Shown: piece by piece, positions 5,514 to 37,304 of the stretch
How positions within the stretch are numbered: position 1 is the stretch's first letter
Layout of the letters: every line of letters starts with the position of its first letter
Assembly: GCA_964384165.1 (NCBI GenBank)
Contig: CAYLKB010000001.1
Coordinates: 2,030-47,884 of the forward strand
From: an uncultured Methanosarcinales archaeon
GTDB lineage: Archaea > Nanobdellota > Nanobdellia > Woesearchaeales > UBA583
Reading direction: 5' to 3'
DNA: 45,855 nucleotides
Notes under the pieces: model-generated
What the model saw: only the letters and a program-made list of their open reading frames with translations
The model's database searches: none
Told to the model about the DNA's origin: nothing
Translations under genes and position numbers: made by a program

Positions 5514-5551
5514 GCCAAGATCGCATAATCCGGTATTGCGCAACCCTGGAA
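5514..5551 (+). tRNA. 5' half of chromosomal tRNA-Ser(GGA): acceptor 5' strand, D-arm, anticodon-stem 5' strand, loop nt 32-37
   Basis: GCCAAGA-TC-GCAT-AATCCGGTA-TTGC-G-CAACC-CTGGAA. The acceptor strand GCCAAGA and anticodon-stem strand CAACC are exactly complementary to TCTTGGC and GGTTG at 37304-37345. No T-arm or 3' acceptor strand follows locally. Confidence 0.8.
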
Positions 5552-5553
5552 AG
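5546..5553. repeat. left copy of att core / direct repeat CTGGAAAG
   Basis: An identical 8-mer is found at 37297-37304. It coincides with anticodon loop nt 32-38 plus one further nt. Confidence 0.75.
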
Positions 5554-6536
5554 AACGAGCAATAAGCACTACTTCTCATATTAATCCAAGTGTTGGAATT
5601 GGAAAAACCCAATTAAATGACTTGTATCTATCAAATTCTCAACAATTTGTCAATCAAGTAATCCAAAAAGAAGGAGATACAAATATTGTCCAAAAAGATG
5701 ATTTTATGTTAAAAAGTATATACTTTATAGAGAGAAAAAAATTTGAAAAATATGTGAAAAAGACTTTTTCTACAACTTATAGTGTTAGTGTAACTAATCA
5801 TCTTCAAAAAATATTTGAAAAATATGATGTAAAATCAATTCCAGAGATGAAAAAATTAGTCAATAGTGGAAAAATACATCAAAAAGGTGGAAGTCTTGCT
5901 ATTAGAGTTCTTTTAAATTATTGTGAAAGAAACGATTTAATAGATATTGATGATATAGATGCTATTAGAAGAAGAATAAAAATTGAAAGTAAAGAAAATA
6001 TAGATAGATTTATTCCAAATGATAATGATATTGAGAAATCTATTAATTATATTAAAGAAAATTTAGAAAGAAAACATCTATTGATTTATCATTTTATGAT
6101 ACAAACAGGGTGCAGGTGGACTGAAACTGTTGATTTCTTTAAAACATTTAATGAAAAACATTTAGAAATTGAAGGAGATGTGTGTGCTTACTCTCATTTT
6201 TATTTAAGAGGTAAGAAAACATCTTTCTATTTGCTCTTTACAAAGCAATTATATAATGAATTAAAACCATTTATTGGTAAAATTACTAAAAAGGATATGA
6301 TTTATTTGAAGAGAAAAATACAAAGAGATAAAGAAGAAGGAACAATTTGTTTGAAATATTTGAGAAAATATTGTTTTACTTCTATGATTAAGAGTGGAAT
6401 TACAATTGAAGTTGCTAATATGATTAATGGTAGAAGTCAAAAATCTAATGTAGGCATAACTCACTACTTGAACCAAAAAGAGATTATGATAAAAGAGTAT
6501 CAAAAAGTTATGGAAAAATTCTTGGAATTGGTTTAA
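5547..6536 (+). CDS. SSV-type tyrosine integrase, C-terminal fragment Int(C) (gene partitioned by integration)
   Basis: The frame is open from 5529 through the att core (..QPWKERAISTT..) into ORF 5622..6536. Tyrosine-recombinase-like boxes: MIQTGCRWTE, LRKYCFTSMIKSG, GRSQKSNVGITHYL. It is a paralogue of the intact integrase at 35403..36710 (TGCRWTE/EGDVCAY versus SGARWKS/YGDVAVY). No plausible ATG lies at the junction. Confidence 0.75.
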   Translation, partial: WKERAISTTSHINPSVGIGKTQLNDLYLSNSQQFVNQVIQKEGDTNIVQKDDFMLKSIYFIERKKFEKYVKKTFSTTYSVSVTNHLQKIFEKYDVKSIPEMKKLVNSGKIHQKGGSLAIRVLLNYCERNDLIDIDDIDAIRRRIKIESKENIDRFIPNDNDIEKSINYIKENLERKHLLIYHFMIQTGCRWTETVDFFKTFNEKHLEIEGDVCAYSHFYLRGKKTSFYLLFTKQLYNELKPFIGKITKKDMIYLKRKIQRDKEEGTICLKYLRKYCFTSMIKSGITIEVANMINGRSQKSNVGITHYLNQKEIMIKEYQKVMEKFLELV

Positions 6537-7822
6537 TTATTATTTATTTTTTCAACATATGAAGGATAAGTAATTGGTGATAATTTATAAAAATAATAAT
6601 AAAGACCACACATTTCAAAAAATTCAAAGATATTTTCTAAAACATCATCATCTATCCAAAAATCTTTATAGTAATTACAACCTTCATATAAAAAATTCTT
6701 CATTAAAGAATATTCACCTTCAAATGGTTCATATTTTGATATTTTTTTATATATATTTCTTTCAGAATAAGTAATTATATTCCCAAAAATATCAAATTGA
6801 TTTTTCACATCTATTTTTTTCCTTTCTTTATCCATATCTTTAATAAAGTTTAATAATAGTTTTTTATAATTTCCTTGATATTTTTTTAATAATTTTAATG
6901 TTGAAAAAAATGAATTAAATTCTTCTCCTATTGCTAATATGAATTTTTTATATGTTTCAAGATAATTAAATTTATCACTTTTTTTAAAATTCTTTCTTAT
7001 TTGTTCATCATATATATATTCAAGATATTTGATATAATTATCTTCTACTATTGTTTTTATTATTTTATCATAATTAGAAAAATAAACAGATTTTAATTTT
7101 TTAAATCTTTTAATTTTATAATCTAAATTTTTAGAGTTATAATCAATTGTCATTATTTTATCAATTTCCATTGAATTTATAGTGGCTGTTTCATATTTAG
7201 AATATTGTTTTTTTAATCTACCTTTATTATCAATATTATTTTTAATTTTTTTAAAATTTTCTGTGTTTTGTAATTCTTTATAAAAATTAATTCTATCTAA
7301 ATTTAATTCATCAAGAGTATAATTTATCAAATAAGATATTAAATATTTATTTAATTCATAATAATTATTAGATTTTGAAAAAGTAACTATATTTGTTTCT
7401 TTTATATCTTTCAGGGAAGTATTATAACTACTCAAAGAAATTTTTTTCTTTTTTAATCTATTACTATTTGTATAATATTGAGATTGAATTCCTTTTTTTA
7501 AAATAAATTCTTTTATTTCTTCATAATCATTATGAAAGACTTTTATTACTGTAATTATTAAAAGTATTTCTTGTGTTTTAAAACATCTTATATCCTTAAT
7601 TTCTTTCATAATTAACTCTTTGTTAAAGTTTTCTTTGGGTGGAATTGGCAAATTACATATTTCAGTTTCTAAATTATTTTTAAATTGAAAATACATCTCT
7701 TTCCATCTTTGTTGAATTTTTTTAATTACTTCTTTATCTTTTTTTATTTCATAGTTCTTATGTAAATATTCCTTAAATCCTGTAATAATTTCTGTTTCTA
7801 AAGGAAGACCATTTGATTTCAT
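6533..7822 (-). CDS. hypothetical protein (N/K/Y-rich, 429 aa)
   Basis: Long uninterrupted ORF, convergent with Int(C) with a 4-nt stop overlap. No recognisable motif. Confidence 0.5.
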   Translation of the reverse strand: MKSNGLPLETEIITGFKEYLHKNYEIKKDKEVIKKIQQRWKEMYFQFKNNLETEICNLPIPPKENFNKELIMKEIKDIRCFKTQEILLIITVIKVFHNDYEEIKEFILKKGIQSQYYTNSNRLKKKKISLSSYNTSLKDIKETNIVTFSKSNNYYELNKYLISYLINYTLDELNLDRINFYKELQNTENFKKIKNNIDNKGRLKKQYSKYETATINSMEIDKIMTIDYNSKNLDYKIKRFKKLKSVYFSNYDKIIKTIVEDNYIKYLEYIYDEQIRKNFKKSDKFNYLETYKKFILAIGEEFNSFFSTLKLLKKYQGNYKKLLLNFIKDMDKERKKIDVKNQFDIFGNIITYSERNIYKKISKYEPFEGEYSLMKNFLYEGCNYYKDFWIDDDVLENIFEFFEMCGLYYYFYKLSPITYPSYVEKINNN

Positions 7823-7938
7823 AATAAATTATAATTTATTTTATTTAAATTTCTATCGTTTTAAAATTAATATATAAGGGTTACTTGTAAATCAACAACA
7901 AGTGAAATCTCTATCTTCATAGGTATTAACTATTGTAT

Positions 7939-7955
7939 CCTTGTTTGAAACAAGG
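7939..7955. promoter_or_regulatory. perfect 17-bp palindrome CCTTGTTT-G-AAACAAGG upstream of the wHTH gene (candidate operator)
   Basis: 8-bp arms around one central base, read directly, 16 nt upstream of the ATG at 7971. Confidence 0.35.
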
Positions 7956-7970
7956 TAGTTAAAATTTAAA

Positions 7971-8573
7971 ATGACAAATATTAATTTGACAAATAAAGAA
8001 ATAGATAAACTACCAATTCAAGAAAGAATTGGAACATACTATCTATTGAAAAGAAAAAATGCTACTAATGTAATTATTGCATTAGGTAGAGGTTACAATA
8101 CTGCATCTCAAATTAAGAGAGAATTTAATTTGTATCACAATACAGTATTAATAATATTAAAAGAATTTGAGAATAGAAATATTGTAGAAAAAATAAATAA
8201 AGAAATGAAAAAAAGTTGGACTTTTGCTTTAACTGATTATGGAATTAAATTACTACAAACACTTGGAGAAGAACCAAGTATTAATATCTCAAATAATGAT
8301 GTTGAAATAAATGAAATCAAAGAAGAAGTTAAGGAAAAATCAAAAGAACTTGTTCAAATTACTAATCCTAAAAACAATGTTGCAATGTATGTTAATGGTA
8401 AGTATAAAGAATTAATTGATATTATTGAAAAAGAAACTCCTCATAATAGATATACTATTGCAGATATTGGTTTTAAATTACAATTAATTAAAATTGCAAA
8501 GATGTGTAATGACAATCATAAAGTTAATGATTGGTTTGAGAGGTATGGAAATAATTTAAGTGAGGTGATTTAA
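7971..8573 (+). CDS. winged-helix (ArsR/MarR-like) DNA-binding protein
   Basis: 200 aa. The N-terminal segment NVIIALGRGYNTASQIKREFNLYHNTVLIILKEFENRNIVEK...WTFALTDYGIKLL has an HTH-plus-wing pattern. It is the first gene of a tightly packed + operon running to 10184. Confidence 0.6.
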   Translation: MTNINLTNKEIDKLPIQERIGTYYLLKRKNATNVIIALGRGYNTASQIKREFNLYHNTVLIILKEFENRNIVEKINKEMKKSWTFALTDYGIKLLQTLGEEPSINISNNDVEINEIKEEVKEKSKELVQITNPKNNVAMYVNGKYKELIDIIEKETPHNRYTIADIGFKLQLIKIAKMCNDNHKVNDWFERYGNNLSEVI

Positions 8574-8942
8574 ATGAAAAGTAAAAGTATAAATGACTTA
8601 ACTCATTTTTTGAATAACAATTATAGTATTATACAATGTAAATTTAATAATACTAAATATGAGTTTGAAACAAATATGCCATTAGGTTATTACTATGAGT
8701 TTATTGAATTTGAAATATATGTTTCAAAACAATTAATTAAAAAAGTTCACCCTTGTATTGATTGGACAGAAGAAATTGAACAAGTTTTCAATGATAATAA
8801 TCTAAATAATATTGAAAAATATAATGAAAAACTTCAATTAATAATTACAACGATGGATAATGTGGAAGTCTTTATGTTAATTGATTATTATAATGAAATA
8901 ATTCAAATTATAAGTAGTGAGGAAATGAAAAATGAATTATAA
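8574..8942 (+). CDS. hypothetical protein
   Basis: 122-aa ORF starting 1 nt after the upstream stop, preceded by a GAGGTGA-like SD. Confidence 0.5.
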   Translation: MKSKSINDLTHFLNNNYSIIQCKFNNTKYEFETNMPLGYYYEFIEFEIYVSKQLIKKVHPCIDWTEEIEQVFNDNNLNNIEKYNEKLQLIITTMDNVEVFMLIDYYNEIIQIISSEEMKNEL

Positions 8943-9261
8943 AACTCATAGAAGATGGACTAAAATGGAATATGATAATATGAAACAAGATAGATTAAAT
9001 GGTATGTCTTATGAAGATATTTCATTAAAATACAATCGTGGTTTAGAGGGAGTAAAAAGAAAATTTTTTAGAGGACATAGTAAGGATAAAAGATTGTCTA
9101 AATATATTAATCCACATTTTATTAGAAAATTTAAAGATGATTATTTCAATCAAAATTTGCCAACAAATGAAATTACAAATAAATATGGATTTAATAGAAA
9201 TCAACAGGTATATCAAATTGCTCATAGATTAAAAAAAGAAGGTGAAAAAAGAAAATGTTAA
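8932..9261 (+). CDS. hypothetical protein, possible Myb/SANT-like HTH
   Basis: 109 aa. HRRWTKMEYDNMKQDRLNGMSYEDISLKYNRGLEGVKRKF resembles a Myb-like helix-turn-helix. Overlaps both neighbouring genes. Confidence 0.45.
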   Translation: MNYKTHRRWTKMEYDNMKQDRLNGMSYEDISLKYNRGLEGVKRKFFRGHSKDKRLSKYINPHFIRKFKDDYFNQNLPTNEITNKYGFNRNQQVYQIAHRLKKEGEKRKC

Positions 9262-10184
9262 AAGGAAACAATAAATATCCATTTACAGAAAAATATAGAC
9301 CTAATTGTTGGGGTGATTTAGTTTATAAAGATAAGTGGAAATTAAAGAAAAACTTTGAACTAAATAGAATTACACATCTTTTAGTGTATTCAGAGAGTGG
9401 GGGAACTGGCAAGGGTTCAATTGCCAATATAATTAAAAATCAATATGAACAAACTTTTCTTGAAATTAATTGTGGAATTGATAATGGTAAAGATTATTTA
9501 TCAAAAAGAATTGTTGATATTCCTTCTATAATTAATTGGTATTCTGGGAGAAGAAAAGTTTTATTTATTGATGAAGTTAATAAATTATCTCCTGAAGCAT
9601 TTGAAACTTTAAAAGTTCCTCTTGAAAAATATGCTCATATTTGTATGGTAATAATTGCAACTAATAATATAAAAAAAATTCCACAACCAGTTTTATCAAG
9701 ATTTTATAAAATAGATTTATCAAATCCTGATAAAGATATGATTTTAGAAAGATTAAAATATATTTGTGAAGAAGAAAATGTCCAATATAATGAAGATATA
9801 TTAAGAAATATAATTAAAGATTATTATCCTTCAATTAGAGAAATGATAACACATATTCAAGTAAATCAAGATTATTTATGTGAGGAAGTAGTTAAAAGCA
9901 ATTCACTAACAAAAAAACAAGTTAATTATATTTGGAGAGGATTTATACAAGTAAGAAAAATAATTCCATTATTAAATCATTGTCAAAAGAATAAGTTGAA
10001 TTATTATGATGTTATCAAATCATTAGAAAGTGCAACAAGAATTAGAAATGTTGCTGGTGATAAAACAAATGATATTCAAAGATTAATTGTAGATTACAAA
10101 AACAAAATAATAAATGAACAAAATTCTGACAATTTAATGGAAGAATTTTTACATAAATTTGACAAAATTTTGTCAAAAAAATAA
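9255..10184 (+). CDS. RFC/clamp-loader-like AAA+ ATPase
   Basis: 309 aa. N-terminal EKYRPNCWGDLV (RFC box II-like), P-loop ESGGTGKGS (Lys followed by Gly rather than S/T), Walker B VLFIDEVNKL, sensor region IIATNNIKKIPQPVLSRF. Confidence 0.75.
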   Translation: MLKGNNKYPFTEKYRPNCWGDLVYKDKWKLKKNFELNRITHLLVYSESGGTGKGSIANIIKNQYEQTFLEINCGIDNGKDYLSKRIVDIPSIINWYSGRRKVLFIDEVNKLSPEAFETLKVPLEKYAHICMVIIATNNIKKIPQPVLSRFYKIDLSNPDKDMILERLKYICEEENVQYNEDILRNIIKDYYPSIREMITHIQVNQDYLCEEVVKSNSLTKKQVNYIWRGFIQVRKIIPLLNHCQKNKLNYYDVIKSLESATRIRNVAGDKTNDIQRLIVDYKNKIINEQNSDNLMEEFLHKFDKILSKK

Positions 10185-10816: not shown

Positions 10817-10818
10817 AA

Positions 10819-11082: not shown

Positions 11083-11085
11083 AAA

Positions 11086-11539: not shown

Positions 11540-12451
11540 ATGGTTATTTTTAAAGATACTAATGGTAGTTTAAAGAAAGTTAAAGAAATTGGTTTTAATT
11601 TAGAAGAAGAAATGCAAAACCTTGTTGGTAAGAATTTAGATACAATATTTGGTCTTGAATTTGTAAGACACGAATTCTTATTGGATAATTTAAGAATAGA
11701 TACACTTGCATTTAACAAAGAAAATAATTCTTTTGTAATAATTGAATATAAAAATAAACAAAATTTTAGTGTTATTGACCAAGGGTATGCCTACCTATCT
11801 TTAATGTTAAATAACAAAGCAGATTTTATTTTAGAATATAATGAACAAACTAATTCTAATTTAAAAAAAACAGATATAGATTGGTCACAATCAAGAGTTA
11901 TGTTTGTATCTCCTTCTTTCTCAAAATATCAACTTCAAGCAATCAATTTTAAAGACCTACCTTTTGAATTATGGGAAATTTCAAGATATGATAATAATTT
12001 AATTCAAATGAGTAAAATTAAGACTTCTGAAACAAGTGAAAGTATTAAAAAAGTATCAAAAGATATTGCTACAAACATTGTAGATAAAGAAGTTAAAGTA
12101 TATTCAGAAGAAGACCACTTACAAAATATGCCTGAAAAAATCAAGTCATTATATGAAGAATTGAAAAATCAAATATATACTATTGATAATAAAATCGAAC
12201 TTGAACCTAAAAAAATGTATTTAGCATTTAAATCTAATTCTAATTTTGTTGATGTAGTATTAAAAAAGAGTAAAATTAAGATACATCTTAATTTAAAAAA
12301 AGGACAATTAAAGAGTTCATCTGAATTAGTAAGAGATGTTTCAAATATTGGTCATTGGGGGAATGGAGATTATGAAGTTCAATTATCTAATGCAGAAGAT
12401 TTGCCAGTTGTATTGTCTTTAATTAAACAAAGTTATGATTTAAATAATTAA
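11540..12451 (+). CDS. PD-(D/E)XK (NucS-like) nuclease-fold domain fused to a DUF5655-like C-terminal domain
   Basis: 303 aa. LRIDTLAFNKENNSFVIIEYKNK..VIDQGYAYL matches the D...(I/V)E-x-K nuclease core. The C-terminal KKMYLAFKSNSNFVDVVLKKSKIKIHLNLKK is typical of DUF5655. Confidence 0.6.
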   Translation: MVIFKDTNGSLKKVKEIGFNLEEEMQNLVGKNLDTIFGLEFVRHEFLLDNLRIDTLAFNKENNSFVIIEYKNKQNFSVIDQGYAYLSLMLNNKADFILEYNEQTNSNLKKTDIDWSQSRVMFVSPSFSKYQLQAINFKDLPFELWEISRYDNNLIQMSKIKTSETSESIKKVSKDIATNIVDKEVKVYSEEDHLQNMPEKIKSLYEELKNQIYTIDNKIELEPKKMYLAFKSNSNFVDVVLKKSKIKIHLNLKKGQLKSSSELVRDVSNIGHWGNGDYEVQLSNAEDLPVVLSLIKQSYDLNN

Positions 12452-12452
12452 T

Positions 12453-14204: not shown

Positions 14205-14439
14205 CTTCTAATTCACCTTTTTTATTTAATTTAAGAACATTAATAGTATATAAAAAATCAATGCTTAATATAAATGTGTCAAAACTCAATGTTGAAGAAT
14301 ATTTTTTTCCTTTCATTTTTTCAACATCAATCCAAAGTTCATCAACATTTTTTGATTTCTTTTTTAATCTTTCAATTATTATTGAACCAATACCTATTAA
14401 GGATTCAGAATTTTTTATATGTTTTTCTGGAAAAATCAT
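14191..14439 (-). CDS. ABC-3C middle component (small wHTH-like adaptor)
   Basis: 82 aa. ATGA overlap with the upstream gene and a 14-nt overlap with the ATPase. Size, position and the LIGIGSIIIERL...SFDTFILSIDFLYTINVL pattern fit MC proteins. Confidence 0.6.
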   Translation of the reverse strand: MIFPEKHIKNSESLIGIGSIIIERLKKKSKNVDELWIDVEKMKGKKYSSTLSFDTFILSIDFLYTINVLKLNKKGELEVEIN

Positions 14440-19931: not shown

Positions 19932-19933
19932 AA

Positions 19934-28454: not shown

Positions 28455-28496
28455 GTCGTAAAGTATTTAAACAAATAAATTGAAAAGTATTTATAT

Positions 28497-29303
28497 ATGG
28501 TAATTTATTGTAATAAATGTGGTCAAGAAAATCCTGATGATAGTAAATATTGTTCTAAATGTGGAACTTTAATCAAGGATTATGATAAAGATGAAGTTCA
28601 AACCAAAGAAGAAAAGGTTGAAATAAAAGAGAAAGATAACAAATCTAAAAGTAAAACAATTAATTATGTTGCTTATGGTGTTATTGTAATTTGTGTTTTA
28701 ATAATCTTATTAGTTCCTACTAAAACAGTTTATGAAACAAAACAAGAAAGTTATACATCATATGAAAGTTACATTATTCAAGAACCTTATCTAAAAGAAG
28801 AAACATATACTGAAAGAGAACCATACATTAGTAATGATTGTAATATTATTTATTCTAATGAAATTGATTTTAATAGTATGTGGCAAAAATTACATACTTC
28901 ACAATCAGAATGGGTTGAAATAGGTTGTATGATAACAAATCTTGAAGAATATGAGGTTACATATGATTATATTATTGAAGCAAGAAATCAAGATGATGCA
29001 ATTGAAGACACTCTACAAAGATATGGAGAAATAACATTATCTCCTAAATCCAGCACATCAGTTGGAGAGGTTTCTTATCAATTTCCATTAGATGTAAGTA
29101 GTGGTTATGTTGCAGATTGTATAGTAACTCCAAATGAAATTGAAACTTGTGAAGAAACAACAAGATATAGAAATGTTGAAAAGGAAAGGTCAGTTACAGC
29201 ATACAAAGATGTAACAAAACAAAGACCAGTTACAAAGTATAGAGATGTTGAGATTTCTAAAAAAGTTAATTGGATATTAGGTATAAGTTTATTTTGGAAT
29301 TAA
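28497..29303 (+). CDS. zinc-ribbon, single-pass membrane protein
   Basis: 268 aa. N-terminal CNKCGQENPDDSKYCSKCG zinc ribbon, then a TM segment (VAYGVIVICVLIILLV) and an extracytoplasmic domain. Confidence 0.6.
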   Translation: MVIYCNKCGQENPDDSKYCSKCGTLIKDYDKDEVQTKEEKVEIKEKDNKSKSKTINYVAYGVIVICVLIILLVPTKTVYETKQESYTSYESYIIQEPYLKEETYTEREPYISNDCNIIYSNEIDFNSMWQKLHTSQSEWVEIGCMITNLEEYEVTYDYIIEARNQDDAIEDTLQRYGEITLSPKSSTSVGEVSYQFPLDVSSGYVADCIVTPNEIETCEETTRYRNVEKERSVTAYKDVTKQRPVTKYRDVEISKKVNWILGISLFWN

Positions 29304-29305
29304 AA

Positions 29306-30916
29306 ATGAGTAAGTTTTGTAATAGTTGTGGGAAACAGGTAGGAGATGATGCTAACTTTTGTCCATATTGTCATTATCAATTTCACCAAGATATAGAAGA
29401 AAAACCTAAACAAAATAATTTTTTAAAATATGAATTACCAGCAATCATTATAATAATAATTCTTTTAATATTTGGAATTACATATATCTCATCAATGAAA
29501 AAAGATTATAGAGAACAATTACACCAAGTAGAATTACAAAAACAAGCTGAACAACAAGAAAAAGAATTTTTAGAACAACAAAAATTAATTGAAGAAACAA
29601 ATAGAATAAAAGCAGAAGAACTTCAATCCCAAGTCCATCAAGAAGAACTTGAAAGACAAAAAGAACAAGCAGACCAAGAAAAACAATTTGAAATAGAACA
29701 ACAGCAAACCCAATATAAAAATGAAGATGATAGATTAAATTCTGATACTGATGATGATGGACTAACATTAAGAGAAGAACAAAAACTTGGAACAAATCCA
29801 AATAAAAAAGATAGTGATAACGATGGAATTCCTGATGGAGAAGATACAAATCCAACAGGTGGGGGAAGAAATTTAAATATTAATGTAAGAGATATTAGTG
29901 TAATAGTCCACTCTGATTACTTTGATTATTATAAGAACAAAAAAAGAATTCCTTATTCAAGTGATATGTTTGGTGAAACTTATGTCCAACATAATGAAAA
30001 ATATATTGATACTATTTACAAACAATTATTAAATCTTTCAGAAAAGAAAAATTCAAATATAATCGATGAAATAAGATATTTTATTCACGACTTGAATTAT
30101 GTTTATGACCATACTCTTGGACATAATGATTATCCAAAATATCCTATTGAAACATTAATTGAAGAAACTGGTGATTGTGAAGATACATCTATTCTTATGG
30201 CAAGTTTATTTAAGAGAGCAGGTTATGATGTTGTCTTATTTAATTTACCTGGACATATTTCAGTTGGAATAAAATGTGATTTTGATTATGGTTATACAAA
30301 TTATAATAATAAAAAATATTGTTATGTTGAAAGCACAAGTAAATATGATTGGGAAATTGGAGAAGTTCCAAGTGATTATTTAGATGAGAATAATGAGATT
30401 ATTATTGAAAAGATATATTCTATTTCTGGTGGAGATAATAAAGAGATTGAGTTTAATGACTATGAAACTACAATAGTTAAAGAAGATTTAGATTGGGACA
30501 ATGATGAAGTCTTAAATGATGATGATAATTGTCCTTTTACAGACAATCCTAATCAAGATGATACTGATGGTGATGAAGTTGGAGATGCTTGTGATTTATG
30601 TAAAGATTATATAGGTATTGAACAAATTAATAAAGATAAATATCCAGAAGGAAAGTATATTGGTTGTCACCCTTGCAATGGTTTAGATTTTAGTGATAGT
30701 TGTTGGGATAAAGAAGAATATCAAAAATTTGAAGATGAAAAGAAAATTAAATTTGATGAATACTTGGAAAAATTGAAAGAACAAGCAGAAGCACAAAACA
30801 AAGCAATATGTGAAGCAGAAGGTAAAGTTTTTATCACAGGAGTTGGTTGTATGACATCAGAAGAGTTTTGTAATTATCAAAGTGGAACTTGGACAGGTGA
30901 TGCTTGTTTGATTTAA
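29306..30916 (+). CDS. zinc-ribbon membrane protein with coiled coil, thrombospondin type-3-like Ca-binding repeats and a transglutaminase-like cysteine protease core
   Basis: CNSCGKQVGDDANFCPYCH, one TM segment and a Q/E-rich coiled coil. DTDDDGL..NPNKKDSDNDGIPDGEDTNP and DNCPFTDNPNQDDTDGDEVGDACD are TSP3-like. GDCEDTSILMASLFKRAGYDVVLFNLPGHISVG is a transglutaminase-like Cys-His core. Confidence 0.7.
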   Translation: MSKFCNSCGKQVGDDANFCPYCHYQFHQDIEEKPKQNNFLKYELPAIIIIIILLIFGITYISSMKKDYREQLHQVELQKQAEQQEKEFLEQQKLIEETNRIKAEELQSQVHQEELERQKEQADQEKQFEIEQQQTQYKNEDDRLNSDTDDDGLTLREEQKLGTNPNKKDSDNDGIPDGEDTNPTGGGRNLNINVRDISVIVHSDYFDYYKNKKRIPYSSDMFGETYVQHNEKYIDTIYKQLLNLSEKKNSNIIDEIRYFIHDLNYVYDHTLGHNDYPKYPIETLIEETGDCEDTSILMASLFKRAGYDVVLFNLPGHISVGIKCDFDYGYTNYNNKKYCYVESTSKYDWEIGEVPSDYLDENNEIIIEKIYSISGGDNKEIEFNDYETTIVKEDLDWDNDEVLNDDDNCPFTDNPNQDDTDGDEVGDACDLCKDYIGIEQINKDKYPEGKYIGCHPCNGLDFSDSCWDKEEYQKFEDEKKIKFDEYLEKLKEQAEAQNKAICEAEGKVFITGVGCMTSEEFCNYQSGTWTGDACLI

Positions 30917-30977
30917 ATTATAAAAAAATCAAAACCACACACAACAATTATAAATAATCATCTCAATTAGTTTTATT

Positions 30978-31415
30978 ATGGTAAAATCTAATGATGTTTC
31001 TAATGATAAGTTTAGAGATGCAAGTGACCTAACAGAAAAACAAATGCAGGAACTTGTAGATAAATACACACAACTGCGAGGAACTATTGAAGTTTTGGAA
31101 AAAGAAAGTGAACAAGTTAAGTCCAAACTTGTTGAATATTCTCTATACAAAGAACAAGATGAGTTAAAAGGAACTCATAGGTCATTGAAATTAAACACTT
31201 ATGACACTTTTGAAATGCCACTAAAAGCAGAGAGTAAACCTCTTATTCAATACTTAAAGAAAAAAGATTATTGGGATATTTTCACAGAACTTGATAAAAA
31301 TAAACTTATCAAAGCGATGAAAGAAAAAAAGTTTAATGATGAGGTTATGGAAGAATTAGGAGAATTTGTCAAACCAAAGACAATTTATCGACTTGTTTTT
31401 GACAAAAAAGAGTAA
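30978..31415 (+). CDS. hypothetical protein (coiled-coil N-terminus; weak Mu Gam-like pattern)
   Basis: 145-aa ORF. The similarity judgement is by eye only. Confidence 0.45.
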   Translation: MVKSNDVSNDKFRDASDLTEKQMQELVDKYTQLRGTIEVLEKESEQVKSKLVEYSLYKEQDELKGTHRSLKLNTYDTFEMPLKAESKPLIQYLKKKDYWDIFTELDKNKLIKAMKEKKFNDEVMEELGEFVKPKTIYRLVFDKKE

Positions 31416-31420
31416 TAAAA

Positions 31421-31636
31421 ATGAAAGATTTAGAAGAACAAACATTAGATTTCTTTGAAGAACATTGGGAAGAGATTAGTAAAGAATTAGAAGGGACAAA
31501 TAGAAAAGAATTTGCTAGGGATATGTTTATGAATGGTTTTCTTTTAGCAGTGACCCAATTTAGTCATATGTTAGATGAATATGACAAACACCCAAAGGAA
31601 ATGAGGGAATATTTGAAATCACTCCAAGAAAAATAG
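31421..31636 (+). CDS. hypothetical small protein
   Basis: 71-aa ORF starting 5 nt after the upstream stop. Confidence 0.45.
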   Translation: MKDLEEQTLDFFEEHWEEISKELEGTNRKEFARDMFMNGFLLAVTQFSHMLDEYDKHPKEMREYLKSLQEK

Positions 31637-31790
31637 TGATACTTGCCTGCACTCAATATTTGGGGACTTTTTCATATTAGATAAACAAGAACACTTGAAA
31701 AGCAGTTTAGTGGTTCCAGAGTAACCCAGAATTTGCCAGAATTGAAATTTAAAATATTATAAACTTATTTTTTTGAAAAATTAAAAAAAA

Positions 31791-32411
31791 TTAATTCTCA
31801 TTTTCTAAATAATCTTCAAATAATCTAAACACATCTTCATAATTTAAATTACAACCCAATTCTATTAATTTTTCTTTTGTAAAATAGGACTTTCGTTTTG
31901 ACATAATAAATAACATATAAATGTGTGATGAATAATATCCTGGATTAGTATTAAGATTATCTTCAATATAAAATTCGCACTCTTCTAATTTTCCTGTTTC
32001 ATTGTAAATATCCATATCATATTTATCTTCAATATATGCTTGCTCTAACTCTTCATCTGAACAAATTAAATATTGGGAGATAATATTTAATTCAATTTCA
32101 TCTAATTTTTTTATTTTATCTATTTCTTTTTTTGAAGTTTGATTTTTATTCATATATTCTAAAATATAATCTAAATCTTCCCTTTTATCTTCAATATCAA
32201 GTAAAGAGAAATGTATTGAAAGTGATTTTTTCAATTCCAAAACTCTATCCAAATAAGAAATATTTTTATTTTCCTTATCTATAACTTTGTTTCTTGCATC
32301 AATGAATTCTTTAACTTCATCTTCATTAACCCAAAATTCATTAGCAGTATTACTAATTAATAATGTTAGTCCTTTTTCATATTCTTTTTTTGTTAATTTT
32401 TTTATTACCAT
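31791..32411 (-). CDS. hypothetical protein
   Basis: 206-aa acidic ORF immediately downstream of the P-loop gene (3-nt gap). Confidence 0.5.
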   Translation of the reverse strand: MVIKKLTKKEYEKGLTLLISNTANEFWVNEDEVKEFIDARNKVIDKENKNISYLDRVLELKKSLSIHFSLLDIEDKREDLDYILEYMNKNQTSKKEIDKIKKLDEIELNIISQYLICSDEELEQAYIEDKYDMDIYNETGKLEECEFYIEDNLNTNPGYYSSHIYMLFIMSKRKSYFTKEKLIELGCNLNYEDVFRLFEDYLENEN

Positions 32412-32414
32412 TTT

Positions 32415-34448
32415 TTAATATATTTTGTTTTCATTTAAATAAAAAATCTTGCCAGTATTACCTTTTGTTCTTTTACCAGTATCAAAGGGTATAACATATT
32501 CCTCTCTAATTAAACCCTTCATAACCTTTTGAAATGTTCCTTTGCTACTTAAAGTGTTCAAACAAAAAGTTTCTAATGCTTTATTATGGTCTAACCCTGT
32601 TGCAATAGAATATGCTCCTTCTTGTGCTAATATTTTTATCATCATTGTTTCATCTTCTTGTAAATTTAAAGCATCTTTGATTGTATAATTTGATGAAAAA
32701 TGAATAAACATACTCTCTGTAAGTTTTTGAACTCTTGGTGCAATTAAGTGAATTGCCCACTCATCTACAATTAATTCATTAGGAGAATTATTTTTTTTAT
32801 ATGTTTGATATGCTATTTGTAATAAAAATGCAAACCTTTTAAACATATCTTTAATAGCACTTTCTGATTTTTCTCTAAAATGTTCTAAATAAATTTTATA
32901 ATCAATTTTTTTATTATAAAAAAAATCTACATAATATTGAATAAGATTTATTGCATTTGGAGTAAATTTAATATTACTATATTCTTTAATACTCCAATCA
33001 TCAGGATTATAAATCCTAACTTTACAAGTTTGAACTTCTCCTTTTTTATTCTTCCACTCATCAGACATAAATGTATAAGGTGCATCTTCTTTAATAAAAG
33101 CAAGATTATTAGATTTATCTTTCATAGAAACCAAAACATCTAAAAAAAATTTAGGTCTTAATAATTTATTATCCTTATAATTATCTTGGTTTTTTTCAAA
33201 AGAGGTTAATTTTAACTTTGGTAATTGGAATGGTGTTAATCTTCTCATCATACCTTGGTCATAAAAATCCTGATGTAACTTTTGATTTTGTAAAAATAAA
33301 ATTACTGTGCAATGTGTTTTATATGTTAATAACAAATTTGCACCAGTTATAGGTTTACTTACAAAGCCTTTTGGTATTGGTTCAAGACTATTACAAAAAT
33401 AACCAAATATTTGCTGATTTGTTTGGTTTATTTTTTTCTTATCTAATATATTACTTGCTTCAGGATTAATTATTACATCATTATAGAACATACCATAAGA
33501 TTTAAAATTTTCAATAAATCTATAAGAATTTTCATCAAATGTAACATTTGATACTTTTTCACATCGAGAAAGGTTTTCTTCTGGTTTAAAAATAGCTGGT
33601 TTTAAACTACCTAAATATGTTTCTTGATGACCTGCACCACCTACGATAGATATTTTTTTTTCTAAATGTTTTGAACAATATTCTATTGCATTATGAAATC
33701 TCCCTTTTCCACTCCCTGTTGGACCACAGTAAATTGGGCTACTTCTTGCATCACAACTATCGTGTCCAATAAAAAATGTTATTTTATCTGATACTGCAAT
33801 CCCCATAGCAACAAACATATTATGGAATATAAATGGGTCATATATCTCCCAAGTATTTGTATAAAATAATTTTTTAAAATCTTCAATACAATCCTCTAAA
33901 AATATCTCCAACTCTCGTTCATCTTGATTTGATGTTTCAACAAATTTAGAACTTATTACTTTTGAAAATATTTTTTCATTTTTCAATATTAAATCTATCC
34001 TATAATTTAGAATATAATTTAGGATTGTTGGTTGTTCTAAATTATGTTGATTAAATACCAACTCTTCCTTCATTAAATCTACTACCTTACTTAATTCGTT
34101 AGGAATATCTAAATTCTTTTTTATCTTTTCTTTATAAATTTCTTCATTTGGTATTATCTTAATGAATTTAGATGCAATCAATTTTTCAAATTGTTCTTCT
34201 TCTGGAAATAATTTTTTAAAACTTTCATTAAATATCTCAACAAATCTATTATAATTTATATTTGCCTTTTTGTTCAAAAGAGCATATAGTTCATCAATAC
34301 AATTTTGAAATAAACCATAAATAATCTTTAAAATTTTATTCTTAAAGTTTTCATCTTGATTTATTATTGCAATAATTCTATTTAATATTAGTTTTTGAAA
34401 TTTTTCTTCGCCTTTTTCAAATAATTTTTCTAATTCGTTTTTTGTCAT
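32415..34448 (-). CDS. P-loop NTPase, putative element replication initiator/helicase with a C-terminal wHTH-like tail
   Basis: 677 aa. Walker A YCGPTGSGKG. Its size and its position next to a long AT-rich non-coding region are typical of plasmid/virus Rep-helicases. The family could not be assigned by eye. Confidence 0.6.
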   Translation of the reverse strand: MTKNELEKLFEKGEEKFQKLILNRIIAIINQDENFKNKILKIIYGLFQNCIDELYALLNKKANINYNRFVEIFNESFKKLFPEEEQFEKLIASKFIKIIPNEEIYKEKIKKNLDIPNELSKVVDLMKEELVFNQHNLEQPTILNYILNYRIDLILKNEKIFSKVISSKFVETSNQDERELEIFLEDCIEDFKKLFYTNTWEIYDPFIFHNMFVAMGIAVSDKITFFIGHDSCDARSSPIYCGPTGSGKGRFHNAIEYCSKHLEKKISIVGGAGHQETYLGSLKPAIFKPEENLSRCEKVSNVTFDENSYRFIENFKSYGMFYNDVIINPEASNILDKKKINQTNQQIFGYFCNSLEPIPKGFVSKPITGANLLLTYKTHCTVILFLQNQKLHQDFYDQGMMRRLTPFQLPKLKLTSFEKNQDNYKDNKLLRPKFFLDVLVSMKDKSNNLAFIKEDAPYTFMSDEWKNKKGEVQTCKVRIYNPDDWSIKEYSNIKFTPNAINLIQYYVDFFYNKKIDYKIYLEHFREKSESAIKDMFKRFAFLLQIAYQTYKKNNSPNELIVDEWAIHLIAPRVQKLTESMFIHFSSNYTIKDALNLQEDETMMIKILAQEGAYSIATGLDHNKALETFCLNTLSSKGTFQKVMKGLIREEYVIPFDTGKRTKGNTGKIFYLNENKIY

Positions 34449-35263: not shown

Positions 35264-35467
35264 TTATATGTCAAAATTTTGACAATATTCTTTCACTTTT
35301 TTGTCAATTTTTGGTTTAGTTTGTAGCAGTTGTTGTTGCATATTGATAATAATTGATTTAAGTTCATCAACTTCTTTTTCAAGTTTTGATATTCTTTGTT
35401 CATTAGTTTGTTTTATTTTCTTCAAATAGTTCTTCCCAGTGTAGCAAAGTTTTTTTATATTCTTCAA
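35264..35467 (-). CDS. hypothetical coiled-coil ORF (doubtful)
   Basis: 67-aa ORF overlapping the integrase 3' end by 65 nt. No motif. Confidence 0.3.
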   Translation of the reverse strand: MKNIKKLCYTGKNYLKKIKQTNEQRISKLEKEVDELKSIIINMQQQLLQTKPKIDKKVKEYCQNFDI

Positions 35468-36710
35468 TACAAGTGTTTAATTTTTCAGAATAATTTTTCC
35501 AACCAGGAATTTTTGTTAATCTTGATTGAATAAAATCTGATATAATAAAATCTATTTTTAATGAATTCATATATGACTTGCCATAGTTTCTATGATACTT
35601 AAACCATACTAATTGATTATCTGCTCTATTCTGTAATCTTCTTTTGAAATCGTGTAAAATTATATTTTTGAAATGTTCTGGATTTTGTTCATATATTTCA
35701 ATAATTCTTTTAATTGTTTTTGTTCTACAAAACATAAAAAGACCTTTTTTCTTATCAATTGTTTTCTTTTTAGGTTTTTTTATTTTATAAACTGCAACAT
35801 CACCATATATTTGTAAATTATCATAATTAAAATTTTTAAAACAATCTCTCTCAATACTTTTCCATCTTGCACCACTTTCAACTGATAATTGATACAAAAG
35901 TAAATCAATTTCTGAAATAGGTGGTGATTTTCTGGTTTTCTTAATTGGATTTATAATTAATGTTCTAATTAATCTAATACTCTCTTGCATTTCTTCAAAT
36001 GAGGGCATATAATCATCATATCCATCATTATTTTCTTGTTTTTTTGATTTAATATTTGTTAATATAATTCCAATATGGTCAAAACTTAATAAAGCAAAAC
36101 ATTTACAGAATTCTATAAATTTTCTAAATTGTGATATTGTTGAAACCTCTTCTCTTTGAGAAAGAGCATAATATTCATTAACATTTATGACATTTTCATC
36201 TATAAAAATATGTCTATTTTTGTTAATATGTCTTACTGTTGTATCATCAGTCCAACCAAAACTCCTAATCCAATCTTCAAATTCTTTTTGATTTTGAAGA
36301 TAAATTTTTTGAAGATTAACTTTTTCAACTCTATTATCTGATAAATTTTTTGAAATTTCTGATAGTGTATCAATATACTTTTGTTTTTCACTTATTTTAG
36401 ATTGAAGTTCTTCTTTTTCTTTTTCAAATTCTAATTCTCTTTTTAACCCATTTGTTATGAAACTTATATAATCTTTAACGATATTATAACTTCTTTCACT
36501 TAATTCTTCTTTGAAGATTGAGAGATTTAATAAAGAAAAAGGAATACTACAAATTTGTTCATATGAAATATCTTCATTATCTTGATTTAATAAATTAATC
36601 CAACCACCAAGAATACTCTCTATTACTTGTTTTTCATAAAAATCATCTTGTTTATCTTTTGGTAATGATTTAACTTCTTCAATTTTTTTTAACAAATCTT
36701 TGGGTAACAT
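35403..36710 (-). CDS. tyrosine integrase, intact paralogue of the partitioned integrase
   Basis: 435 aa. LSVESGARWKSIERD..YGDVAVY.. aligns with MIQTGCRWTETVD..EGDVCAY.. of Int(C). C-terminal KYHRNYG...GWKNY. Lies beside the tRNA-Ser gene. Confidence 0.75.
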   Translation of the reverse strand: MLPKDLLKKIEEVKSLPKDKQDDFYEKQVIESILGGWINLLNQDNEDISYEQICSIPFSLLNLSIFKEELSERSYNIVKDYISFITNGLKRELEFEKEKEELQSKISEKQKYIDTLSEISKNLSDNRVEKVNLQKIYLQNQKEFEDWIRSFGWTDDTTVRHINKNRHIFIDENVINVNEYYALSQREEVSTISQFRKFIEFCKCFALLSFDHIGIILTNIKSKKQENNDGYDDYMPSFEEMQESIRLIRTLIINPIKKTRKSPPISEIDLLLYQLSVESGARWKSIERDCFKNFNYDNLQIYGDVAVYKIKKPKKKTIDKKKGLFMFCRTKTIKRIIEIYEQNPEHFKNIILHDFKRRLQNRADNQLVWFKYHRNYGKSYMNSLKIDFIISDFIQSRLTKIPGWKNYSEKLNTCIEEYKKTLLHWEELFEENKTN

Positions 36711-36826
36711 TACTAAATATAATAATAGTATATTTAAAAGAGTTAGCAGACATAAATAAAAGTTTTTAATGGTCTATTAATAATGATTTTAGTTAGTTTA
36801 TAAGAATTATTTCGTTTAAACAAAAA

Positions 36827-36909
36827 CGCCACCAATGGGATTTGAACCCATATGCCCATAAGGGCGTAGATTTCCAGTCTACTGCAATACCAAGTTATGC
36901 GATAGTGGC
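36827..36909 (-). tRNA. tRNA-Ser(GGA), intact, carried inside the element
   Basis: Reverse complement folds as GCCACTA-TC-GCAT-AACTTGGTA-TTGC-A-GTAGA-CTGGAAA-TCTAC-GCCCTTATGGGCAT(long variable arm)-ATGGG-TTCAAAT-CCCAT-TGGTGGC-G. Anticodon GGA, discriminator G, no encoded CCA. Confidence 0.9.
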
Positions 36910-37117
36910 AATATAAACAATCTACTATTTAATAATTTTAATTAATTAGTAGAATATATCTATTATAATAATAAAAATAAAATTCCATTTAAAAGGTTTG
37001 CTAAATGATTTATATTATTGAATAGATATTTTAATTAAAAAAACAGTGAAAAATTATATAAATTAACACTTGTTATTTATTACTTATTTAGTAGGAATTT
37101 ATATACTAAAAGAAACA

Positions 37118-37303
37118 ATGCCAAAGTTAAAATCAACAAAAGAAAGAGTGTTGATTACTATTGACAAAGACTTGTTAAAATTGATAAAACAACAAAATAA
37201 AAGGGTTTCGACATTGATTAACGATGTTTTACAAATGTATTTGTTAAACCATTATAATCAAGAATTAAATGAGTTGTTACTACTTAACGCTCGTTTCTGG
37301 AAA
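37118..37303 (+). CDS. SSV-type integrase N-terminal fragment Int(N) (62 codons up to the att core)
   Basis: The ATG at 37118 follows a TATA-like ATTATATAAA. MPKLKSTKERVLITIDKDLLKLIKQQ.. is RHH-like. The frame runs ..NARFWK into the att core and then continues through the tRNA 3' half to a stop at 37441. Confidence 0.7.
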
Positions 37304-37304
37304 G
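37297..37304. repeat. right copy of att core / direct repeat CTGGAAAG
   Basis: Identical to 5546-5553. Preceded by GCTCGTTT, the reverse complement (with one G.U) of GAACGAGC that follows the left copy. Confidence 0.75.

What the first reader, a model, noticed from the sequence alone, without database searches (positions are those of the whole stretch)
5546..37304. ~31.8-kb integrated element bounded by an 8-bp repeat and a partitioned SSV-type integrase gene
CTGGAAAG occurs at 5546-5553 and at 37297-37304. A 62-codon ORF starting at the ATG at 37118 reads ..NARFWK into the right copy. The frame leaving the left copy reads WK-ERAISTT.. and continues without a stop into the tyrosine-recombinase ORF ending at 6536. 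Both copies are read TGG-AAA in the same phase, so recombination across the repeat would rebuild one uninterrupted int gene of about 389 codons. An attP site inside int, with Int(N) and Int(C) at opposite ends of the provirus, is the defining feature of SSV-type archaeal integrases. Gene content changes from housekeeping to MGE/defense cargo exactly at these two points. The shared core is only 8 bp, whereas classical SSV-type att sites are about 40 bp or longer, so the target tRNA gene is not restored by the element.
Basis: partly seen in the sequence, partly recalled or inferred. Interest (0 to 1): 0.7.

Follow-up and report, generated by a model that had tools for sequence, protein, structure and literature searches.

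The report
Integrated element splits tRNA, carries replacement
A 31.75-kb mobile element has inserted into the anticodon loop of an archaeal serine-tRNA gene, cutting both that gene and its own integrase gene in two, and it carries its own copy of the same tRNA, probably as a substitute, which is a strategy proven so far only for some bacterial viruses.

Summary
CTGGAAAG occurs only at 5546 and 37297. Its first 7 bases are the anticodon loop of a host tRNA-Ser(GGA). Joining the outer flanks rebuilds a perfect tRNA. Joining the inner flanks rebuilds a 389-codon integrase of the archaeal SSV type (Pfam PF16795, E=3e-25; best fold matches are SSV1 integrase). Uninterrupted homologues exist, one on a free 9.5-kb circular element.

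Copies of this element in four other samples sit in different tRNA-Ser(GGA) alleles, and in L014 beside different host genes. All break at the same 7-bp loop.

Unlike all described archaeal integrations, the tRNA is not restored. This tRNA is conserved in four copies, and every stem substitution is compensatory.

The best reading is an archaeal, probably DPANN, counterpart of bacteriophage "tRNA-dependent lysogeny", combined with a self-splitting integrase and defence-gene cargo. Replacement by the element tRNA is inferred, not shown.

A less likely alternative is that the two tRNA halves pair into a canonical bulge-helix-bulge and are trans-spliced.

The parts
5514..5552 (+). Host tRNA-Ser(GGA) 5' half, from G1 to A38. 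It is an orphan and is fused to Int(C).
   Evidence: ARAGORN finds a complete tRNA only after in-silico excision. The sequence was read directly. L007 has a different allele of this half in front of the same element.
5546..5552 (+). Left copy of the 7-bp core CTGGAAA, which is the anticodon loop C32-A38 and the inferred overlap region of strand exchange. G5553 is an eighth shared base in this host only.
   Evidence: Window and L007 become identical exactly at C32.
5553..6536 (+). Int(C), codons 63-389 of the partitioned SSV-type integrase. It contains a helical core-binding-like domain and the catalytic domain. The first in-frame ATG, at 5706 (residue 114), coincides with the start of the folded body.
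   Evidence: Pfam PF16795 on residues 215-383. PDB SSV1 Int matches. AlphaFold2 model. Start codons.
6533..10184 (.). Conserved left backbone: ORFs of 429 aa (-), 200, 122 and 109 aa of unknown function, and a 309-aa clamp-loader-like AAA+ ATPase (9255-10184).
   Evidence: 97.5% identical in L007 and 80-87% identical in L008. Pfam AAA and PHROG 168 clamp loader.
11540..25820 (.). Defence cargo: PDC-S18 (DUF5655), an ABC-3C / PDC-M68 system (DUF2326 ATPase, MC6, CTD10), a UvrD-PD-(D/E)XK helicase-nuclease, type III R-M Mod and Res, GmrSD/HEC-05, and a DUF2779 protein.
   Evidence: Pfam and PADLOC. This region is not matched by the partial contigs L014/L015. Relatives of the integrase family carry other defence sets.
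28149..34448 (.). Right backbone: an ArsR-like wHTH protein, two zinc-ribbon proteins, and ORFs of 145, 71, 206 and 677 aa. It is partly conserved in the other copies.
   Evidence: Pfam. The same gene order is seen in L014. 87-89% identical blocks occur in L014 and L015.
35403..36710 (-). Int2, a second and uninterrupted PF16795 integrase paralogue (435 aa, 25% identical to Int1). The conserved Arg, Arg and Tyr align with those of Int1.
   Evidence: Pfam E=6.9e-9. BLASTP against Int1 E=5e-10. Present at the same place in L014 and L015, and partially in L016.
36826..36909 (-). Element-borne tRNA-Ser(GGA). It shares 61 of 83 positions with the split host tRNA, keeps the same first four acceptor pairs and G73, and is the candidate replacement.
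   Evidence: ARAGORN. Rfam RF00005 at 53.7 bits, the only tRNA called in the window. Conserved in L014, L015 and L016 with two compensatory stem changes and no disruptive change.
37118..37303 (+). Int(N), codons 1-62. It is probably a ribbon-helix-helix-like N-terminal domain plus the beginning of a disordered linker. The ORF then reads on into the tRNA 3' half.
   Evidence: Weak BrnA/RHH Pfam hit. Five orthologous Int(N) ends all diverge after ...LNARFWK. The junction lies in the low-pLDDT linker 39-113.
37297..37303 (+). Right copy of the 7-bp core CTGGAAA.
37304..37346 (+). Host tRNA-Ser(GGA) 3' half, from G39 to the discriminator G73. It is an orphan.
   Evidence: Three other host alleles occupy the same position in L014, L015 and L016.
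37283..37296 (+). Left arm of attP (..CTTAACGCTCGTTT). It is an inverted repeat of 5553-5566 (GAACGAGCAATAAG), and the two arms flank the core in the reconstructed attP.
   Evidence: Read directly. In the RNA co-fold the arms pair as 8 bp, or as 6+4 bp in the MFE structure.

Best explanation
This is an integrated mobile element of 31,751 bp in an AT-rich archaeon, probably a DPANN (Woesearchaeota-like) organism. In its free circular form it would carry one 389-codon SSV-type tyrosine integrase gene. The attP site lies in the disordered linker between a small N-terminal domain and the recombinase body. attP consists of a 7-bp core, CTGGAAA, flanked by inverted arms (GCTCGTT / AACGAGC). The core equals the anticodon loop of tRNA-Ser(GGA), whose stem supplies the inverted arms of attB. 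Strand exchange across the 7-bp loop inserts the element. Because nothing beyond the loop is shared, two genes are cut at once. The integrase is cut into Int(N) of 62 codons and Int(C) of 327 codons. The tRNA is cut into a 5' half and a 3' half that now lie 31.75 kb apart. The element compensates with its own tRNA-Ser(GGA) gene, placed 208 bp upstream of int on the other strand. The host then reads UCU and UCC codons with the element's tRNA and cannot easily lose the element except by precise excision. Cargo defence systems ride along. What is shown: the anatomy, the family of the integrase, the recurrence of the same junction in other hosts, and the conservation of the element tRNA. What is inferred: that the element tRNA functionally replaces the host gene, that exchange occurs at the loop borders, and that the element can still move.
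For: In-silico excision rebuilds a perfect tRNA-Ser(GGA) and a 389-codon ORF. The ORF is PF16795 at E=3.3e-25, and SSV1 Int is the best sequence and fold match. Three full-length homologues align across residue 62/63. One of them lies on a 9.5-kb circular contig with a tRNA-derived attP in the same linker.

Independent insertions: L007 is 97.5% identical to the element but sits behind a different tRNA-Ser(GGA) allele, and identity starts at C32. L014, L015 and L016 have the same Int(N) end fused to three other 3'-half alleles, and L014 lies beside different host genes. Five Int(N) proteins all diverge right after FWK.

The element tRNA is present in all four copies that include that region. 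It has 7 variable columns, of which 4 form two compensatory pairs and 3 lie in loops. All 24 pairs are kept, while the surrounding DNA is only 83-86% identical. It is the only tRNA that Rfam and ARAGORN call in the window. UCU+UCC make up 30% of Ser codons in both host and element genes.

Precedents: SSV1 Int exchanges strands at the borders of the anticodon loop (review PMC8371274). In mycobacteriophages an 8-10-bp core that fails to rebuild the tRNA, together with a phage tRNA of the same isotype, was shown experimentally to be required for lysogeny (PMC10865867).
Against: No empty site and no circular junction of this element were found. The rest of the host genome is not available, so a second chromosomal tRNA-Ser(GGA) gene cannot be excluded. 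There are no expression data for the element tRNA. The covariation rests on three distinct sequences, and 52 of 500 shuffles reach the observed value. The attP arms do not resemble the attB arms, so how a single integrase would recognise both is unexplained. The more distant relatives L004 and L013, which split tRNA-Ser(UGA), could not be checked for a matching tRNA because their right ends are not on the contigs. The host taxon is inferred from relatives (L006 Woesearchaeota), not from this window.
Confidence: 0.75

Rival explanations
1. The split tRNA is still used. The 5' half would be transcribed from the tRNA promoter and the 3' half as part of the Int(N) transcript. The two would pair through the acceptor and anticodon stems and through the complementary attP arms, forming a bulge-helix-bulge that the archaeal splicing endonuclease cuts and RtcB ligates. 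This is how the split tRNAs of Nanoarchaeum equitans are made. The element tRNA would then be redundant or a backup.
For: An unconstrained co-fold gives all the tRNA stems plus a bulge-helix-bulge region. The canonical register is h = anticodon stem, H = CUGG/CUGG (2 G-C and 2 G-U pairs), two AAA bulges, and h' = GAACGAGC/GCUCGUUU. It scores -43.7 kcal/mol against an MFE of -44.7. Cutting between bulge nucleotides 2 and 3 would give exactly ...A36A37 + A38G39.... The geometry matches the published definition, a 4-bp helix with two 3-nt bulges and the first two anticodon bases inside the helix (PMC4090602). The relatives are DPANN archaea, the group in which split tRNAs were first found.
Against: The h' helix is expected anyway, because recombinase core sites have inverted arms. 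The MFE structure prefers a 6-bp central helix. In relatives that split tRNA-Ser(UGA) the core is CTTGAAA (L004, L013), so the central helix would be CUUG/CUUG with two U-U mismatches, meaning the property is not conserved. The 3' half would carry a leader of about 190 nt. A conserved replacement tRNA makes splicing unnecessary. There are no RNA data.
Confidence: 0.12
2. The region is a composite. Int2 plus the adjacent tRNA would be the footprint of a separate pNOB8-type element, with an intact int next to a tRNA on the same strand, that inserted into a tRNA gene. The tRNA would then be an integration target rather than a replacement.
For: The order tRNA then int2 on the same strand, with 115 bp between them, is the classical pNOB8-type layout as defined in PMC3293823. 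Int2 is intact and has the conserved Arg, Arg and Tyr.
Against: No direct repeat of any part of the internal tRNA exists elsewhere in the window. The Int2 - tRNA - Int(N) block travels together in four different host contexts, so the tRNA belongs to the mobile element whatever its history. Even under this model the tRNA would still complement the split host gene.
Confidence: 0.08
3. The element is a fixed, no longer mobile relic, in effect a domesticated defence island. The host reads UCU and UCC with another tRNA gene elsewhere in the genome, and the element tRNA is ordinary cargo.
For: SSV-type integration destroys the integrase gene and is considered hard to reverse (PMC8371274). No free form was found.
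Against: Both integrase halves are free of stop codons here and in all relatives. A 97.5%-identical copy lies in a different host allele, which indicates recent mobility. The tRNA is more conserved than its surroundings and its stem changes are compensatory.
Confidence: 0.05
4. The two junctions are assembly artefacts.
For: The window comes from a metagenome-type assembly, and only one run carries exactly these flanking proteins.
Against: Separate Logan contigs cross each junction identically. The same two junction types recur in at least five other samples. A chimera would not rebuild both a perfect tRNA and a 389-codon ORF.
Confidence: 0.01

Closest known systems
SSV-type ('suicidal') integrases of archaeal viruses and plasmids: SSV1 and SSV2 (Sulfolobus fuselloviruses), pTN3 and pT26-2 (Thermococcales)
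   Same: The catalytic domain is homologous (PF16795; SSV1 Int is the best PDB match by sequence and by fold). attP lies inside the int ORF. Integration into a tRNA gene partitions int into Int(N) and Int(C) at the two ends. For SSV1 the overlap region is the anticodon loop (PMC8371274).
   Different: The described members share about 40 bp or more with the tRNA gene and always rebuild it. The review says this holds 'for all integration events'. Here only the 7-bp loop is shared and the tRNA stays split. The host group is also different: the review does not mention DPANN archaea. This element additionally carries a second intact paralogue and its own tRNA.
tRNA-dependent lysogeny of actinobacteriophages such as Fionnbharth, Cluster L phages and Gaia (Guerrero-Bustamante & Hatfull 2024, PMC10865867)
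   Same: A tyrosine integrase is used. The common core of 8-10 bp overlaps the anticodon region of a tRNA gene. The tRNA is not reconstructed. [quoted passage not shown]
   Different: Those systems are bacterial. They use a lambda-type integrase with arm-type sites, and the int gene stays intact. The requirement for the phage tRNA was proven by genetics there and is only inferred here. Here the integrase gene is split as well, and the host could in principle trans-splice the halves.
Split tRNA genes of Nanoarchaeum equitans, Caldivirga and Desulfurococcales, and the idea that mobile elements created them (Randau & Soll; Chan et al. 2011, PMC3218864; Sugahara et al. 2012, PMC3293823)
   Same: [quoted passage not shown] The trailer and leader are complementary. 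A BHB motif compatible with cleavage at 37/38 can be drawn.
   Different: In the known cases the halves are proven to be joined and no element is recognisable between them. Here the element is plainly present and recent, but joining is untested and a replacement tRNA exists.
pNOB8-type archaeal integrases
   Same: [quoted passage not shown]
   Different: No att duplication was found for it, and it belongs to PF16795 like Int1. Its role is unknown.

Membership tests
SSV-type (type I, 'suicidal') archaeal integrase | Tyrosine-recombinase catalytic domain homologous to SSV1 Int | tested here: met
   PF16795 at E=3.3e-25 and 89 bits against a cutoff of 27. Sequence matches to 3UXU, 3VCF and 4DKS at E about 1e-8. 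Foldseek target TM-score 0.77-0.81 to the same chains.
SSV-type (type I, 'suicidal') archaeal integrase | attP lies inside the int ORF, so that integration separates Int(N) and Int(C) to opposite ends of the element | tested here: met
   Int(N) is at 37118-37303 and Int(C) at 5553-6536. They are in phase and give 389 codons when joined. Full-length homologues are collinear across the junction.
SSV-type (type I, 'suicidal') archaeal integrase | Conserved catalytic Arg, Lys, Arg and nucleophilic Tyr | tested here: met
   R250, K284, R333, R356, H366 and Y367 are invariant in alignment A1. R250, R333 and Y367 align with the corresponding SSV1 Int residues. Assigning each residue to a catalytic role rests on general knowledge of the family.
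SSV-type (type I, 'suicidal') archaeal integrase | The att site is a long direct repeat (about 40 bp or more) that reconstitutes an intact tRNA gene | tested here: not met
   Only 7 bp are shared (8 in this host). No tRNA is called at attL or attR. This is a property of the described members rather than of the enzyme, so the protein is filed as a family member while the integration mode is a variant.
tRNA-dependent lysogeny / integration | A short common core within a tRNA gene, and the tRNA is not reconstructed | tested here: met
tRNA-dependent lysogeny / integration | The element encodes a tRNA with the same anticodon as the disrupted one | tested here: met
   tRNA-Ser(GGA) at 36826-36909(-). 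It is conserved in L014, L015 and L016.
tRNA-dependent lysogeny / integration | The disrupted host tRNA is single-copy and essential, and the element tRNA is required for survival of the integrant | not testable with these tools
   Only 14 kb of host DNA is available. Indirect support: UCU+UCC make up 30% of Ser codons.
Trans-spliced split tRNA | Separate 5' and 3' half genes with complementary trailer and leader | tested here: met
   GAACGAGC pairs with GCUCGUUU, and UAAG with CUUA.
Trans-spliced split tRNA | A BHB motif (3-nt bulge, 4-bp helix, 3-nt bulge) that positions cleavage to give the mature sequence | tested here: inconclusive
   The canonical register is possible and lies 1 kcal/mol above the MFE. 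The MFE structure has a 6-bp helix. The motif is not conserved for the CTTGAAA core of L004 and L013.
Trans-spliced split tRNA | Both halves are expressed and the ligated mature tRNA is detectable | not testable with these tools
   No RNA data are available.

The most novel reading that the evidence does not exclude
Insertion of this element converts an ordinary tRNA gene, in one step, into a functional split tRNA. The duplicated anticodon loop and the inverted attP arms give the two half-transcripts a ready-made hBHBh' motif that the splicing endonuclease can cut at 37/38. This would be the first case in which the long-postulated origin of Nanoarchaeum-type split tRNA genes by mobile-element integration is caught with the element still in place, in a DPANN lineage.
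Probability: 0.12. Interest if true: 0.9.

Novelty: new variant of a known kind. Interest (0 to 1): 0.66.

Why it matters
Textbook and review statements hold that archaeal elements integrating into tRNA genes always rebuild the gene. This element and its relatives do not.

The finding extends "tRNA-dependent lysogeny", described in 2024 for mycobacteriophages, to archaea and to an unrelated, self-splitting integrase family. That points to convergent evolution of a strategy that makes the host depend on the element for an essential tRNA.

It also gives SSV-type integrases a foothold in DPANN archaea, whose mobile elements are barely known. These elements shuttle defence islands there.

Annotation pipelines that look for long att repeats or intact tRNAs will miss such elements, and they will under-count tRNA genes in these genomes.

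Finally, the finding offers a concrete and testable route from element integration to split tRNA genes.

Tried and rejected
Empty site:
- The exact-protein look-ups of both flanking host genes found only the same sample, in occupied form.
- The last homology search, on the left-flank 215-aa ORF, returned nothing.
- The likely reason is that the Logan gene call on L002 used the opposite-strand ORF. One search shows that the (-) ORF is the real gene.

Free form:
- The predicted attP junction and the integrase family are both absent from the IMG/VR viral contigs.

Family surveys:
- The genome and metagenome surveys each returned only two loci, so family-wide statistics were not possible.

att site for Int2:
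- A k-mer search with the internal tRNA and its flanks against the whole window gave only AT-rich noise and the shared T-loop.

Extended identity around the core:
- None was found. The attL and attR flanks share no extended identity on either side of the core.

Composition:
- GC content does not mark the element. It is about 20-28% inside and 23-32% outside.

Virus or plasmid:
- PHROGs gave no capsid or other virion hits for the backbone proteins, so whether the element is a virus or a plasmid remains open.

Mis-binning idea:
- I first suspected that L005 (labelled Methanosarcinales) was the same locus as L006. They share only a 1.4-kb block with different flanks, so I dropped that idea.


Full report
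**1. The observation**

CTGGAAAG is present exactly twice in the window, at 5546-5553 and 37297-37304, both on the + strand. An 8-mer occurring twice in 46 kb of 24% G+C DNA is not remarkable in itself, since 12 of 100 shuffles do as well. The context makes it real.

The 32 bases before the left copy (GCCAAGATCGCATAATCCGGTATTGCGCAACC) and the 43 bases after the right copy (GGTTG...TTCAAATCCCAGTCTTGGCG) are the two parts of one tRNA. When the interval is removed in silico, ARAGORN calls a perfect tRNA-Ser(GGA) with all stems paired. In the window as it stands, neither ARAGORN nor Rfam sees a tRNA at either junction.

The repeat is therefore the anticodon loop, C32-A38, plus G39.

Joining the inner flanks (37118-37304 + 5554-6536) gives one open 389-codon frame. 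Two separately assembled Logan contigs from the same run cross the two junctions and are identical to the window.

**2. The joined protein**

It matches Pfam PF16795, "Archaeal phage integrase", at E=3.3e-25 over residues 215-383. Its only sequence relatives among solved structures are the three SSV1 integrase catalytic-domain entries. An AlphaFold2 model has mean pLDDT 67 and is confident for residues ~113-203 and 219-388. Its four best PDB matches are those same SSV1 structures (target TM-score 0.77-0.81), followed by two-domain alignments to XerA, XerH, Tn1549 Int, lambda Int and Cre.

The junction at residue 62/63 lies in a long low-confidence linker (residues 39-113). This linker sits between a small N-terminal helical, possibly ribbon-helix-helix, domain and the recombinase body.

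An exhaustive HMMER search of 1.84 billion representative proteins found 258 relatives. Most begin after the junction, as expected for integrated copies. Three of them (P0024, P0026, P0028) align from residue 1-8 to residue 382-385.

P0028 is encoded on a 9,660-bp contig with a 141-bp terminal overlap. It was recovered as 100%-identical circular permutations in other samples, so it is a free circular element. Its int gene carries a tRNA T-arm/acceptor segment in the same linker, which is a classical attP. The partition seen in the window is therefore the integrated state of a normally continuous gene.

**3. Independent insertions fix the crossover**

L007, from another sample, is 97.5% identical to window 5523-10894. 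Its tRNA 5' half is a different allele, with D-loop ACTTGG and anticodon stem CAAGA against ATCCGG and CAACC in the window. The two sequences become identical exactly at C32.

Five orthologous Int(N) proteins from other samples are conserved up to ...LNARFWK and then diverge. At the DNA level, L014, L015 and L016 read GTTT-CTGGAAA followed by GCTTG, TCTTG and TCTTG. These are 3' halves of three further tRNA-Ser(GGA) alleles. L014 lies next to different host genes, including an eIF-6 homologue, which marks an archaeon.

The common core is thus the 7-nt anticodon loop. The reconstructed attP has inverted arms, GCTCGTT and AACGAGC, around it. This is the usual layout of a tyrosine-recombinase core site. 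It also matches the report that SSV1 Int cuts at the borders of the anticodon loop (PMC8371274).

More distant relatives (L004 and L013; Int(C) 43-46% identical) lie in the syntenic position after ThrRS, pyrophosphatase and a membrane protein. They split a tRNA-Ser(UGA) in its loop, CTTGAAA.

**4.

(a) The element carries its own tRNA-Ser(GGA) at 36826-36909(-), 208 bp upstream of the int start and divergent from it. It is the only tRNA called in the window (ARAGORN; Rfam 53.7 bits). It shares 61 of 83 positions with the split host tRNA, including the first four acceptor pairs and G73.

The same gene is in the same place in L014, L015 and L016. Among the four copies, seven columns vary. Four of these make two compensatory pairs (A-U to G-C in the D stem, A-U to U-A in the T stem), three are in loops, and none breaks a pair. 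The flanking DNA is 83-86% identical. With three distinct sequences the shuffle control is weak (52/500), so this is supportive rather than conclusive.

(b) Directly downstream of that tRNA lies a second, uninterrupted PF16795 integrase, Int2 (35403-36710, 435 aa, 25% identical to Int1). It is conserved in the other copies.

**5. Contents**

The left backbone is shared with L007 and L008. It encodes four ORFans and a clamp-loader-like AAA+ ATPase.

The centre is defence cargo: PDC-S18, an ABC-3C/PDC-M68 system, a UvrD-PD-(D/E)XK helicase-nuclease, a type III R-M system, GmrSD/HEC-05 and a DUF2779 protein.

The right backbone has a wHTH regulator, zinc-ribbon proteins and ORFans. No virion proteins were recognised.

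Relatives of the integrase family carry other defence sets, including McrBC, HsdM and a CARF protein.

**6. Mechanism**

The best-supported reading is integration by strand exchange across the 7-bp anticodon loop. This splits both int and the tRNA gene, and the element's own tRNA-Ser(GGA) takes over decoding of UCU and UCC, which are 30% of serine codons in both host and element genes.

This matches "tRNA-dependent lysogeny", shown by genetics in mycobacteriophages. In those phages an 8-10-bp common core fails to rebuild the tRNA, and a phage tRNA of the same isotype is required for lysogens to survive (PMC10865867). That paper does not mention archaea. None of the 23 papers in the held library that use the term appears to deal with archaea.

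The archaeal review states that integration reconstitutes the tRNA "for all integration events", and it does not mention DPANN.

Int(C) has its first in-frame ATG at residue 114, exactly where the folded body starts. A complete two-domain recombinase could therefore still be made after integration. Int2 is another possible source of excision activity. Both ideas are speculative.

**7. Alternative: trans-splicing**

The attP arms are inverted repeats and the loop is duplicated, so the two half-transcripts can pair. The unconstrained co-fold gives the acceptor, D, anticodon, variable and T stems plus a bulge-helix-bulge region.

The canonical hBHBh' register has CUGG/CUGG as the 4-bp helix, two AAA bulges and an 8-bp outer helix. 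It lies 1 kcal/mol above the MFE. It would yield the exact mature sequence if cut as in canonical 37/38 introns, whose geometry is given in PMC4090602.

Mobile elements have been proposed as the origin of split tRNAs, but only from indirect evidence (PMC3218864 and PMC3293823).

Against this alternative:
- The outer helix is expected for any recombinase site.
- The MFE structure prefers a 6-bp helix.
- The CTTGAAA core of relatives cannot form the central helix.
- A conserved replacement tRNA is present.

I give this alternative about 0.12.

**8. Limits**

No empty site or circular junction of this element was found. The rest of the host genome is unavailable. The host taxon is inferred from relatives, namely a complete Candidatus Woesearchaeota chromosome and the eIF-6 gene next to L014. 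There are no expression data.

**9. Verdict**

The protein is a member of the SSV-type integrase family. The integration mode is a new variant for archaea, with a 7-bp core, no restoration of the tRNA, and an element-borne replacement tRNA. Its closest functional parallel is bacteriophage tRNA-dependent lysogeny.

Noticed in passing
window 35403-36710 (-): A second, uninterrupted PF16795 integrase paralogue (Int2, 25% identical to Int1) lies directly downstream of the element tRNA. It is conserved with the tRNA and Int(N) in L014, L015 and L016. No att repeat was found for it. It might rescue excision after Int1 is split, or it might act together with Int1, given that the attP and attB arms differ.
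   Followed up: partly
L006 9753-9903; L017 ~70-223; also L005, L009 and L012: In a sister clade, an orphan tRNA-Ser(GCU) 5' half ending in its anticodon loop is followed by a 29-nt spacer, a complete tRNA-Ser(GCU) with a different acceptor stem, and then Int(C), all in one open frame. A replacement tRNA may therefore be embedded inside the integrase gene. The orphan half in L006 is 40/40 identical to the 5' half of the intact tRNA in L017. L005 and L006 share only this 1.4-kb block, with different flanks on both sides.
   Followed up: partly
L013 ~1553-1580; L015 3945-4026; L016 ~1150-1215: There is extra tRNA debris beside the insertion sites: a second short 5' fragment in L013, another CTGGAAA plus a second 3'-half copy at the contig end in L015, and a degenerate T-arm/acceptor piece in L016. 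These tRNA-Ser loci seem to be hit repeatedly.
   Followed up: no
L019 (9660 bp); L020-L022: This is a free circular element of about 9.5 kb, with a 141-bp terminal overlap and 100%-identical permuted contigs in four samples. It carries an intact integrase homologue (P0028) with a classical tRNA-derived attP in its linker, plus a serine resolvase.
   Followed up: partly
L003 9943-10026: Another relative (P0008) sits directly behind an intact tRNA-Ser(GCU) with no orphan half, which is the classical layout. The downstream genes look like host genes, so this may be a remnant.
   Followed up: no
window 4803-5450 (-) versus 4858-5445 (+): Two long ORFs overlap on opposite strands. The public gene call on the Logan contig L002 uses the + strand ORF, but the - strand ORF is 43-45% identical to the syntenic membrane protein of L004 and L013 (E about 1e-39) and is the real gene.
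   Followed up: yes
window 43303-45855 (+): A K/E-rich, coiled-coil-like ORF of at least 851 aa runs off the right end of the window, which explains the strong purine skew there.
   Followed up: no
window 5513-5552 compared with L004 ~9970-10007 and L013 ~1755-1793: At the syntenic position after ThrRS, pyrophosphatase and the membrane protein, this host has tRNA-Ser(GGA) while the related hosts have tRNA-Ser(UGA). Both are split by related elements.
   Followed up: partly
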